From the NCBI RefSeq assembly GCF_002854065.1, contig NZ_CP024150.1: a DNA stretch of 64,000 nt. One strand, written 5' to 3'. Source of the DNA: Escherichia coli. Its GTDB lineage: Bacteria > Pseudomonadota > Gammaproteobacteria > Enterobacterales > Enterobacteriaceae. Shown here in pieces: positions 33,601-36,600 of this stretch (positions are counted from its first letter, which is position 1; the number at the start of each line of letters is the position of its first letter). Position numbers: made by a program.

Positions 33601-36600
33601 AATTGACGGCGGTGCACTCATGGCACGCAGGCAGTGTTGAATAAACATCCGTTTTGGGGTGTTTTTTTAATCTTTTTGGGATTTAAATTCCTATCGATTA
33701 AATTCCTATCGATGAACCGAAGAGCACGGCGGTGCGGAGTCCGGAGAGTAACGGCATAGCAGAGAGCTTCGTGAAAACGATAAAGCGTGACTACATCAGT
33801 GTCATGCCCAAACCAGACGGGTTAACGGCAGCAAAGAACCTTGCAGAGGCGTTCGAGCATTATAACGAATGGCATCCGCATAGTGCACTGGGTTATCGCT
33901 CGCCACGGGAATATCTACGGCAGCAAGCCAGTAATGGGTTAAGTGATAACAGGTGTCTGGAAATATAGGGGCAAATCCAGAAGGTATCCCTTCGGGTTTT
34001 TGCTTAATTGTTCCTCCTAAACCGGATGGAGACATTGCAGGATTAGGTTTGTGAGTGGATGCATAGTCATATACTGCACCTCCAGCCCCCCCCAGCAGCT
34101 GCTACAATTCCTCCTGCAACAAATTGCCCGGATAGTGTTCCTATAGCCATCGCAATATCACGCCCTGAAGCACCACCAGAAACAGAATCTAATTCATTTA
34201 GAGTCAGAGTTCTCATATGATCTCCTTTTTATCTTATCGGATATTGAATAATAATTATCACCAACAAAGTAACATATTGCAGACATTAATGCAGAGAAGC
34301 AAAATGTATGCATGGATAAAAAGTCCTTTCCTCTAAAAACACAATCATATATAGCTAATGCAATATATATTGCGGTGGCATTTATTATAAATGCAAATAA
34401 CAAATCTAATTTTGTTCTTTTTCTATCCATTACTTTCTATCCATTACTTTCTATCCCATTACCACACAAACACTAACGATAATGATTATCGTTCACATAA
34501 TCAAGAGTGAAGGGTAGGCGGCCCTCACCCCCCTATAAGGGGTCCGCTTGGAAAACGGATTTTCCCACGTCAAGAGAATTGAGTTGAACGAGTGGTTACA
34601 TCCAAGCCTGCTAACTCACTGAACGTAAAGGATGTACGAAATGTTCCTACCGTCCGATAACCATTTGGCTTACTTCCGTACATTCCCTTGCGTAGATGTT
34701 CAGAATTGTACGATTTCGGACACCAAAACCGCTGTTGTCCCGCCATTCTGGCGATTCCTGAAAGTCATTTGACTAAAAAATAGTCTTAACGTGGTTTATT
34801 TTCCGAATTCCAAGCGCCCCCCCTACATTTATACAATGTCCTGCAGGGCATAGAAGTGGCGAAAGAAAATACCTGGGCGAAGCCGCTGAACATCATTCTG
34901 GCGATTTCAATAAAGGTACTTGCTCGCGCTCTGTCATTTTCTGAAACTCTTCATGCTGCATTTCGATTTTCCTTCTAAGATCATAACTCGCATACCTGTT
35001 CTTTTTATGTATATCTATTTTTGTGACGAGTTCAAACCACGATGTTCGCACTCCCCATGCAGCGTTATGAAACATTTCCGCAACGGCTATAGAGTCTGTA
35101 TTAACTGCTTCGGTCATGTAGTCGCTAATACGTTCAGCGGTAATTTTCGTTATTTCATCGTAATTCATTTTATCTCCTACAAGATTATTTAATGGAATGC
35201 AAAATATCTGGTCTGATAATAATGTTCCAGAATTAATATCTGCAGGCTATGTTAAGTTGTCCCCACACACAATCTACCTGTTTTCTCGTGTGTGCCACAG
35301 ACGCAATACATAAATAGTCTGGCCATTAATTTCGTAACGGATTTCGTACTCGCCAGCAAAAATCCGTCTGATCTCCCTGGGCTCAAACTGAAACAACTGT
35401 TCTCCCATACGTGGATGAGTTAACAGAATGACCGGTGCCTGTGTCAGGGACTGTACCGTTCTGGCGGCAGCAGGTTTACTGGCCAGCACCAGAAAATCAT
35501 ATAACCGCGCCAAATCAGAAAGCGCCTTACTGGTCCACTTCAGTTCCATCAGCGTGGCACCGGTAACGGATTGTCAGTACTGAGGCTGTCCGCCCAGGCC
35601 TGTACAGCCTGATGATCGATAACCTGTCCGGATGTCACATCGTCCAGGGCTTCCAGCGTCAGGCGATTACGCTCCTCCTCCTGGGCAAGCCATGCAGAAA
35701 GCGCCTGTTTGATAACCCAGCCCCGGGAGCGTTCCAGCTTGGCGGCCATCTGGTCGATTTTATCAGCCATAGGTAATGGCACATGCGCGGTAATTACTTT
35801 TGTTGCTTGTGCACTATTGTTTTTCATTTGCATATCCGATTAGTTGTTAATCATATTTAATCATAGTGATTACTTTCAGACGGAACAAGGCAAATAATGC
35901 GCGTCAGCGCATGTAAGGCGGCACGCTGTGGTTACATGTGATACCGGAGTAAAACCGCCGAAGCCCGGCGTAAGCCGGTACGGATTGATAGATTTCACCT
36001 TACCCATCCCTTGCCCTGCCAGACCATACCCGTTTTCAGCCATGAGAGAGCTTCTGTGCGCGGTCGGAGTGGTCCCGACGAGGGTTTATCCGAAGTCGGG
36101 GCGTATCTCCGCGTTAGCGGGCCGTCAGGGCCGCTTACGAGCGTGTACTCAATACTTCCAGCGAGAAGACTGACAGCGATGACGGGTATAGTTACAACAT
36201 TCATAATTAAAAGCGACTCTGTTCCGGCCCTTTGGGCCGGGACGGGGCCGCTTTTCAGTTATGAGGGAGGGGCTTTGTGGTTTCGGTTCTGCGCTGGACC
36301 GGGGTTTTTCCGGAGGTTGTCTTTGTGTGTTGTAACTAAAGTGGCTCCGGTCGGAGCCCGCCGCTTGCGGTGGGAGGTGCATATCTGTCTGTCCACAGGA
36401 CAGGCAGTGAATAGGTTTTCTTTTTAAATGAATGTAATTAAGTAGTTTAAAGGAGATATAAACAGGTGTTTAAAGGATATATTGCACCCTGTAAGACTGG
36501 CGGCTGGCGCTTTATGATATGAACGGTTGTAACCTTATGGGGAAGTCCCTTGCAGTTAAATGTGGATAAGCAAAATTCCCCGTCGCTGAGGCGTATTTTG

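What the first reader, a model, noticed from the sequence alone, without database searches (positions are those of the whole stretch)
33980..34464. Colicin V remnant: cvi intact, cvaC frameshifted and truncated, cvaAB absent
cvaC carries the MRTLTLNELDSVSGG leader but loses frame in a G8 homopolymer (34086-34093) and is truncated at codon ~79 by an IS2 fragment. The immunity gene cvi is intact. No cvaA/cvaB export genes lie upstream. A 14-bp unit is tandemly triplicated over the cvi start and promoter.
Basis: partly seen in the sequence, partly recalled or inferred. Interest (0 to 1): 0.45.

Follow-up and report, generated by a model that had tools for sequence, protein, structure and literature searches.

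The report
Decayed colicin V locus, immunity kept
This is the leftover of a colicin V (microcin V) toxin locus on an E. coli plasmid: the toxin and export genes were destroyed by an insertion sequence and a frameshift, the immunity gene survives, and public databases already annotate this common kind of decay.

Summary
Window 33980-34430 (minus strand) holds an intact cvi (78 aa) overlapping by 23 bp the first 79 codons of cvaC. cvaC loses its frame in a G8 run (34086-34093) and ends exactly at the terminal inverted repeat of a 267-bp IS2 fragment (33713-33979). No cvaA or cvaB exists anywhere in the window.

Two details need correcting:
- In intact operons cvaAB lie convergent to and beyond the 3' end of cvaC, not upstream of it.
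- The 14-bp triplication is the native, roughly 15-bp x3 leader of every ColV operon examined. It covers the cvi start codon and probable 5'UTR, not the promoter-like site.

The window is a near-identical sister of E. coli plasmid p2017.06.05CC_1 (NZ_AP027791.1). RefSeq already labels that locus 'cvaC: frameshifted; incomplete' plus cvi. One sister plasmid has G7 (in frame) and another has only two repeat units.

In an evenly spaced sample of 60 of 700 matching records from complete E. coli genomes, about 43% show cvaC cut at one of at least nine breakpoints with cvi kept.

Most likely function: no toxin is made, and there may be iron-regulated orphan immunity to ColV. Novelty: already known. 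Interest is low.

The parts
34194..34430 (-). cvi, colicin V immunity gene, intact (78 aa; E9D relative to the pAPEC2908 allele)
   Evidence: ORF. The DNA is 100% identical to NZ_AP027791.1, where PGAP annotates cvi as WP_032257624.1. The same protein is encoded in the complete operon of p98889.
33980..34216 (-). cvaC remnant: codons 1-79 plus 2 nt of codon 80, with a frameshift. It overlaps cvi by 23 bp (34194-34216).
   Evidence: Alignments to intact operons. Pfam MccV E=1.3e-11. RefSeq note 'frameshifted; incomplete; missing C-terminus' on the identical sister. The 23-bp overlap is the natural arrangement (PMC13174018).
34086..34093 (-). G8 homopolymer (C8 on the + strand), site of the net 2-nt loss that shifts the frame at codon 44/45
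   Evidence: Intact alleles have GGGGGTGTGG, GGGGGGGTGG or GGAGGGGTGG. The sister pCUPSTF6_1_02 has G7.
34067..34069 (-). Premature stop codon of the shifted cvaC frame (49-aa product)
   Evidence: ORF 34067..34216; translation.
34222..34226 (-). AGGAG ribosome-binding site of cvaC, retained
   Evidence: Read directly (GATAAAAAGGAGATCATATG on the minus strand). Its role as a ribosome-binding site is an inference.
33713..33979 (+). IS2 fragment: the last 267 bp including the right terminal inverted repeat. Its outer end is the cvaC breakpoint.
   Evidence: blastn against the two complete IS2 copies of the window, 97.8% and 96.3% identity. NCBIfam IS2 TnpB C-terminus E=1.7e-49.
34420..34462 (-). 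Tandem repeat of three units (15+14+14 nt) spanning the cvi ATG (34428-34430) and two upstream ATGs. uORF1 is ATG GGA TAG (34451-34459). uORF2 is ATG GAT AGA AAG TAA (34430-34444), whose stop overlaps the cvi ATG.
   Evidence: Tandem Repeats Finder. The repeat is ancestral in intact operons. There are two units in p2017.17.03CC_2. The uORF reading comes from the sequence; no function is shown.
34478..34496 (-). Fur-box match GTGAACGATAATCATTATC (16 of 19 to the consensus)
   Evidence: It is the only match in 64 kb; 0.03 are expected by chance. Both ColV operons are reported to be Fur-repressed (PMC6071977).
34476..34504 (-). Putative cvi promoter TTGATT-17-TATCGT overlapping the Fur box. The first hexamer carries C>T (34500) relative to TTGACT in intact operons.
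   Evidence: The site is called in the intact pAPEC2908 (9/12) but falls below threshold in the window (8/12). Alignment. Promoter identity is inferred, not shown.
34431..34595 (-). Upstream part of the ColV module. Homology to unrelated ColV plasmids ends at about 34585-34595.
   Evidence: blastn against pAPEC2908 and pUTME-12-2. p98889 stays collinear through the IncFII replicon.

Best explanation
This is a decayed colicin V (microcin V, class IIa microcin) locus beside the IncFII replicon of an E. coli plasmid.

Shown:
- An IS2 end sits inside cvaC codon 80.
- Everything beyond that point that intact operons carry (the last 24 codons of cvaC and the convergent cvaB and cvaA exporter genes) is absent from the window and from the sister plasmid.
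- A net 2-nt loss created a G8 run that shifts the frame at codon 44/45 and stops translation after 49 residues.
- The 5' half of the operon is preserved: the Fur-box region, the repeat-containing leader, an intact cvi, and the cvaC ribosome-binding site and leader peptide.

Inferred:
- IS2 inserted into cvaC and an IS-mediated adjacent deletion or rearrangement then removed the distal DNA. Most of the IS2 copy itself was later lost next to an IS21-like element.
- The locus cannot make or export toxin.
- It probably still expresses Cvi when iron is scarce. That would make the host immune to ColV made by neighbours, that is, an orphan immunity gene.
For: Structure:
- Searches give the exact junction, frameshift and IS2 identity.
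- Loss of the exporter: no cvaA/cvaB by blastn (also tested on the sister plasmid) or tblastn.
- Ancestral arrangement: window 33980-38428 is collinear with p98889 from cvaC codon 80 through cvi, a RelE/ParE-CopG pair and IncFII repA. p98889 carries the complete cvaA-cvaB-cvaC-cvi operon at that position.

Dead toxin:
- The 32 C-terminal residues of MccV are its Cir receptor-binding domain (PMC12511343). Truncation at codon 80 removes 24 of them and both cysteines (positions 91 and 102).

cvi probably functional:
- The protein is identical to the allele in an intact operon.
- The Fur box is retained.
- In an evenly spaced sample of 60 of 700 matching records from complete E. coli genomes, 26 lack part of cvaC, at nine or more breakpoints (query positions 41, 83, 160, 167, 192, 197, 210, 221, 392). 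In every one the surviving segment runs to the cvi start. cvi is complete at the first seven breakpoints and loses its last two codons at 221.
- Two independent IS1-mediated examples are shown.
- The second bacteriocin locus in the window (microcin B17) also lost its synthesis genes next to an IS2 but kept mcbEFG.
Against: - No expression or phenotype data exist for this cvi.
- The putative -35 hexamer is TTGATT in this lineage against TTGACT in three intact operons, which may weaken transcription.
- The bias towards keeping cvi is partly expected without positive selection. Losing cvi while toxin and exporter remain would be suicidal, and complete deletions are invisible to the search.
- The pig strain with the G7 variant also carries a complete ColV plasmid. 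There the remnant cvi is redundant.
- The order of events (IS2 insertion, deletion, frameshift) cannot be reconstructed from the data.
Confidence: 0.85

Rival explanations
1. The G8 run is a homopolymer miscall. The true sequence is G7, so cvaC is not frameshifted. It would be an in-frame truncated CvaC (lacking Val44) fused to a read-through into IS2, about 137 aa.
For: The sister plasmid pCUPSTF6_1_02 differs from the window at only two positions in 11.6 kb, and one of them is G7 instead of G8. PGAP there does not flag a frameshift. Long homopolymers are error-prone in long-read assemblies (general knowledge).
Against: G8 is present in the window and in two public assemblies. One of them, p2017.17.03CC_2, is clearly diverged in the neighbouring replicon and has a different repeat number. 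The assembly that carries G7 has several other genes flagged as frameshifted, so G7 is the more suspect call. Either way the gene lacks its receptor-binding end and its exporter, so the functional verdict is unchanged.
Confidence: 0.15
2. The whole remnant, cvi included, is neutral debris. It persists only because it sits next to the replicon and has not yet been deleted, and it confers no immunity.
For: There is a possible -35 down-mutation specific to this lineage. The leader repeat varies among sisters between two and three units. cvi is redundant in a strain with a full ColV plasmid. The plasmid lineage is very young, with 2-3 differences per 10-40 kb, so an intact ORF is weak evidence of selection.
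Against: The Cvi protein is identical to an allele from a working-type operon. The Fur box and ribosome-binding context are intact. cvi is retained across many independent cvaC truncations.
Confidence: 0.25
3. The G tract and the leader repeat act as phase-variable switches (a contingency locus) that control expression of the cvi-cvaC transcript.
For: Both tracts differ in length among otherwise nearly identical plasmids: G7 versus G8, and two versus three repeat units.
Against: The G tract lies in a gene that is non-functional in either state. Intact operons do not have a pure G run there. Repeat number is three in all four intact operons read here, and no phenotype is tied to it. Slippage in neutral or error-prone tracts explains the variation.
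Confidence: 0.03

Closest known systems
Colicin V / microcin V operon of pColV plasmids (cvaA-cvaB convergent with cvi-cvaC), e.g. pAPEC2908, p98889
   Same: The retained 616 bp are 97.6-98.7% identical at DNA level. Shared features are the same cvi, the same 23-bp cvi/cvaC overlap, the same double-glycine leader, the same Fur box and the same three-unit leader repeat.
   Different: It lacks cvaC codons 80-103, cvaB and cvaA. It has a frameshift at codon 44/45, a G38V substitution and a C>T change in the putative -35.
The identical locus in RefSeq plasmids NZ_AP027791.1, NZ_AP027831.1 and NZ_CP180634.1
   Same: They have the same IS2 junction and the same cvi. PGAP annotates 'cvaC colicin V; frameshifted; incomplete; missing C-terminus' and 'colicin V immunity protein'.
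   Different: CP180634 has G7 and AP027831 has two repeat units. The window lacks the ISApl1 copy of AP027791.
IS1-truncated cvaC with intact cvi next to colicin B/M genes (ColBM-type plasmids such as pCREC-544_1 and the XJ6.2 plasmid)
   Same: The outcome is the same: an IS abuts a 5' fragment of cvaC, cvi is intact and cvaAB are gone. A truncated cvaC contiguous with colicin M is also reported in PMC6723558.
   Different: The insertion sequence is different (IS1, not IS2), as are the breakpoints (cvaC codon 66 or 25), the plasmid backbone and the cvi allele (WP_014640552.1). There is no frameshift.
Orphan bacteriocin immunity genes (general concept)
   Same: An immunity gene is kept without a working cognate toxin. 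The same window keeps mcbEFG without mcbBC.
   Different: The immunity function is not demonstrated here.

Membership tests
Functional colicin V / class IIa microcin gene cluster | Pre-microcin gene with a double-glycine leader | tested here: met
   The leader MRTLTLNELDSVSGG is present. Pfam MccV E=1.3e-11 over residues 1-43.
Functional colicin V / class IIa microcin gene cluster | Full-length toxin with the C-terminal Cir-binding domain and its two cysteines | tested here: not met
   The frame is lost at codon 44/45 and homology ends in codon 80 of 103. Cys91 and Cys102 are absent. The receptor-binding domain is the last 32 residues (PMC12511343).
Functional colicin V / class IIa microcin gene cluster | Dedicated immunity gene (cvi) upstream of and overlapping cvaC | tested here: met
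   An intact 78-aa ORF with a 23-bp overlap, identical in protein to WP_032257624.1.
Functional colicin V / class IIa microcin gene cluster | Peptidase-containing ABC exporter CvaB and membrane fusion protein CvaA | tested here: not met
   No blastn or tblastn match in the window other than a 50-aa generic ATPase motif in McbF. There is none in the sister plasmid by blastn. The host chromosome could not be examined.
Functional colicin V / class IIa microcin gene cluster | Fur-controlled promoter upstream of cvi | tested here: inconclusive
   A Fur-box match of 16/19 is present. The sigma-70-like site is called in the intact operon but is one mismatch weaker here. Transcription was not measured.
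IS2 (IS3 family) element | Complete 1331-bp element with both terminal inverted repeats and a 5-bp target duplication | tested here: not met
   Only the last 267 bp with the right end are present, and no duplication is identifiable. The two complete copies at 30886-32216 and 52586-53916 serve as reference.
Orphan immunity gene | Immunity ORF intact while the cognate toxin or export genes are inactive or absent | tested here: met
Orphan immunity gene | Confers protection against the cognate bacteriocin | not testable with these tools
   This needs a ColV sensitivity assay.
Phase-variable contingency locus | Repeat-length changes switch a functional product on and off | tested here: not met
   Length variation is seen (G7/G8; two or three units), but cvaC is truncated and lacks an exporter in both states.

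The most novel reading that the evidence does not exclude
The plasmid lineage has been shaped by selection into an 'immunity-only' carrier. Two unrelated bacteriocin loci, ColV and microcin B17, each lost production next to an IS2 but kept immunity (cvi; mcbEFG). The variable leader repeat, whose middle unit in this lineage creates a 4-codon uORF ending in TAATG on the cvi start, tunes Cvi translation.
Probability: 0.15. Interest if true: 0.3.

Novelty: already known. Interest (0 to 1): 0.1.

Why it matters
It matters little beyond correct annotation. The locus should be scored as ColV-immune and non-producing, so the presence of cvi or a 5' cvaC fragment must not be counted as a ColV producer or a ColV virulence-plasmid marker.

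It is one more example of a common pattern. About two in five ColV loci sampled from complete E. coli genomes have a truncated cvaC with cvi retained. That pattern is relevant to how immunity 'cheaters' persist alongside bacteriocin producers. The G7/G8 difference is a useful flag for homopolymer quality in these assemblies.

Tried and rejected
- NCBIfam and Pfam scans of Cvi gave no family. Its identity rests on DNA and protein identity to annotated cvi.
- I tried to read Boyer and Tai 1998 (cvi promoter mapping) and Johnson et al. 2006 (ColBM plasmid). Neither is held. The promoter and transcription start therefore remain inferred, and the ColBM link rests on my own database comparisons.
- A search for inverted repeats to delimit the IS21-like element left of the IS2 fragment found only the IS2 repeats. 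The event that truncated the IS2 copy is unresolved.
- A terminator-like hairpin at 33980-33993 (+) was dismissed as chance. One was found against 1.1 expected, and it lies inside cvaC on the opposite strand.
- A phase-variation reading of the G tract was considered and rejected, because the gene is dead in both states.
- A misassembly explanation for the IS2 junction was rejected, because three independent public assemblies share it.

Full report
**What is in the sequence.** On the minus strand of window 33980-34430 there are two overlapping reading frames.
- The upstream frame, 34194-34430, is an uninterrupted 78-codon ORF.
- The downstream frame starts at 34216 with MRTLTLNELDSVSGG, runs 49 codons and stops at 34067-34069.
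- A third frame further on (ORF 33802-34035) reads MSPSGLGGTIKQKPEGIPS, which is the continuation of colicin V, and then runs into unrelated sequence.
- Pfam recognises the 49-aa product as the N-terminal 43 residues of microcin V (E=1.3e-11).

**Identity of the window.** Megablast against PLSDB and against all complete RefSeq E. coli genomes finds about 640-700 records with the cvi-cvaC region. One is 100% identical over the full query: NZ_AP027791.1, plasmid p2017.06.05CC_1 from a human faecal E. coli from Viet Nam. Local blastn shows that the whole window is a near-identical sister of that plasmid.
- There are 3 differences in 37.6 kb.
- The window lacks one ISApl1 copy.
- The remaining 24.8 kb is 99.84% identical.

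RefSeq annotates the locus there as 'cvaC, colicin V; frameshifted; incomplete; missing C-terminus' followed by 'cvi, colicin V immunity protein' WP_032257624.1.

**The frameshift.** I aligned the window with intact operons from pAPEC2908, pUTME-12-2 and p98889.
- Where intact alleles read GGGGGTGTGG, GGGGGGGTGG or GGAGGGGTGG (codons Gly-Gly-Val-Ala), the window reads eight G. On the + strand this is C8 at 34086-34093.
- That is a net loss of 2 nt, so the frame shifts at codon 44/45.
- The sister plasmid pCUPSTF6_1_02 (NZ_CP180634.1, a pig isolate from Thailand) has seven G. It differs from the window at only one other base in 11.6 kb, and PGAP does not flag a frameshift there.
- A third relative, p2017.17.03CC_2 (NZ_AP027831.1), is clearly diverged in the adjacent replicon and has G8.
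- G8 is therefore seen in three assemblies and G7 in one.
- The assembly with G7 has several other genes flagged as frameshifted, so I consider G8 the more trustworthy call. Only read-level data can settle it.

**The truncation.**
- Homology to cvaC ends at 33980, after the second base of codon 80 (Ser) of the 103-codon precursor.
- The next base, 33979, is the last base of IS2. Window 33713-33979 matches the last 267 bp of the two complete IS2 copies in the window (97.8% and 96.3% identity).
- This stretch encodes the C-terminal 78 residues of the IS2 transposase (E=1.7e-49).
- The gene therefore ends exactly at an IS terminus, which is the signature of an insertion followed by loss of the DNA on the far side.
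- The rest of that IS2 copy has itself been lost next to an IS21-like element that carries another, complete IS2 with a 5-bp duplication. I could not resolve that second event.
- The missing part of CvaC includes both cysteines (91 and 102) and 24 of the 32 C-terminal residues that form the Cir receptor-binding domain (PMC12511343). Even an in-frame product could not act as a toxin.

**The exporter.**
- In intact operons cvaA and cvaB lie on the opposite strand, convergent with cvaC and beyond its 3' end.
- Nothing resembling them is in the window by blastn or tblastn. The sole hit is a 50-residue ATPase motif in McbF.
- Nothing is in the sister plasmid by blastn.
- Plasmid p98889 shows what the ancestor probably looked like. 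Window 33980-38428 is collinear with it from cvaC codon 80 through cvi, a partial hypothetical gene, a RelE/ParE-CopG pair and IncFII repA. In p98889 the complete cvaA-cvaB-cvaC-cvi operon occupies that position and has the same Cvi protein.

**The repeat.**
- Tandem Repeats Finder confirms three copies of a 14-nt unit at 34420-34462.
- The repeat is not peculiar to the remnant. pAPEC2908, pUTME-12-2 and p98889 all have three units of about 15 nt at the same place.
- The window lineage lost one G from the middle unit. p2017.17.03CC_2 lost that whole unit.
- The last unit contains the cvi ATG (34428-34430). The two upstream units each contain an ATG that opens a tiny ORF: MG-stop, and in this lineage MDRK-stop with TAATG overlapping the cvi start. 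No function is known or shown for these.
- The only Fur-box match in the 64 kb (16/19; 0.03 expected by chance) lies at 34478-34496, 16 nt upstream of the repeat.
- In the intact operon a sigma-70-like site TTGACT-17-TATCGT overlaps the Fur box. In the window lineage the first hexamer is TTGATT, one match fewer and below the scan's threshold.
- The repeat therefore covers the start codon and probable 5'UTR rather than the promoter.
- Published work reports that both ColV operons are repressed by Fur and induced on iron depletion (PMC6071977).

**How it most likely works.**
- Shown: the locus cannot encode an active or exportable toxin.
- Inferred: cvi is probably still transcribed from its own Fur-controlled promoter and protects the host against ColV made by other strains. 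This makes it an orphan immunity gene.
- In support, the protein is identical to an allele from an intact operon, the control region is retained, and the pattern recurs.
- The recurrence comes from an evenly spaced sample of 60 of the 700 matching records in complete E. coli genomes. In that sample 34 cover the whole query and 26 lack part of cvaC, at nine or more breakpoints. In all 26 the surviving segment runs to the cvi start.
- Two independent IS1-mediated examples on ColBM-type plasmids are shown. A truncated cvaC next to colicin M is also reported in PMC6723558.
- Three caveats apply. The bias towards keeping cvi is partly expected without positive selection, because losing immunity first would be lethal and complete deletions are invisible to the search. 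The -35 change may weaken expression. No phenotype data exist.

**Comparison and novelty.** This is a remnant of the well-known ColV operon, not a functional member. It meets the leader-peptide and immunity-gene criteria. It fails the full-length toxin and exporter criteria. The identical structure is already annotated in RefSeq and the decay pattern is widespread, so I rate it already known and of low interest. The practical value is in annotation, since cvi or 5' cvaC hits do not indicate a ColV producer, and in flagging homopolymer uncertainty.

**Also seen in the window.**
- A microcin B17 operon has lost mcbB, mcbC and the 5' end of mcbD next to a complete IS2 but keeps mcbA and mcbEFG.
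- An intact EcxAB metalloprotease AB5 toxin is present (PDB 4L63, E=3e-176 and 2e-64).
- A decayed EcxAB paralogue is also present.

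Noticed in passing
window 52329-56746 (+), IS2 at 52586-53916: This is a microcin B17 operon remnant. mcbA is intact (69 aa). A complete IS2 without a target duplication replaces mcbB, mcbC and the 5' part of mcbD. The truncated mcbD (YcaO), mcbE, mcbF and mcbG (pentapeptide immunity) remain. It is a second bacteriocin locus on the same plasmid that lost production next to IS2 but kept its immunity and export genes.
   Followed up: partly
window 61543-62825 (-): An intact EcxAB toxin is present. The A subunit (285 aa, met-zincin motif) matches PDB 4L63 chain A at E=3e-176. The B subunit is cholera-toxin-like (E=2e-64). RefSeq annotates the A subunit of the sister plasmid only as 'hypothetical protein'.
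   Followed up: partly
window 12996-13659 (+): This is a decayed paralogue of EcxAB, 72-77% amino-acid identity. Only the last 75 residues of the A subunit remain, next to an IS3 copy, and the B subunit has an internal stop.
   Followed up: partly
window 34499-34504 (-): The putative cvi -35 hexamer is TTGATT in this plasmid lineage but TTGACT in three intact ColV operons. This may be a down-mutation of the immunity promoter.
   Followed up: partly
L014 (NZ_CP180635.1) and L003 (NZ_CP180634.1): Pig strain CUPS TF 6/1_01 carries both the remnant plasmid (G7 variant) and a separate 130-kb plasmid with a complete cvaA-cvaB-cvaC-cvi. In that strain a CvaAB exporter is available in trans to the leader-bearing truncated CvaC. 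The assembly has several genes flagged as frameshifted.
   Followed up: partly
window 30886-32216 and 33683-33713: A complete IS2 with a 5-bp duplication (ATGTT) sits inside an IS21-like element whose istA and istB have internal stops. A 15-bp unit (TTAAATTCCTATCGA) is repeated 2.1 times exactly at the truncated inner end of the IS2 fragment. Its origin is unexplained.
   Followed up: no
window about 15750-28260: By mapping to the sister plasmid's annotation, this stretch holds a type IVb pilus gene cluster (major pilin, secretin, PilO2, GspE-like ATPases, prepilin peptidase, minor pilins). I did not examine it directly.
   Followed up: no
window about 39164: The window lacks the ISApl1 copy that interrupts the hha region of NZ_AP027791.1 (record 107147-108218). 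The window therefore comes from a different, slightly less IS-laden sister plasmid.
   Followed up: no
window 35274-35833 (-): A RelE/ParE toxin and CopG antitoxin pair lies between the ColV remnant and IncFII repA. It is conserved in the same position in p98889.
   Followed up: no
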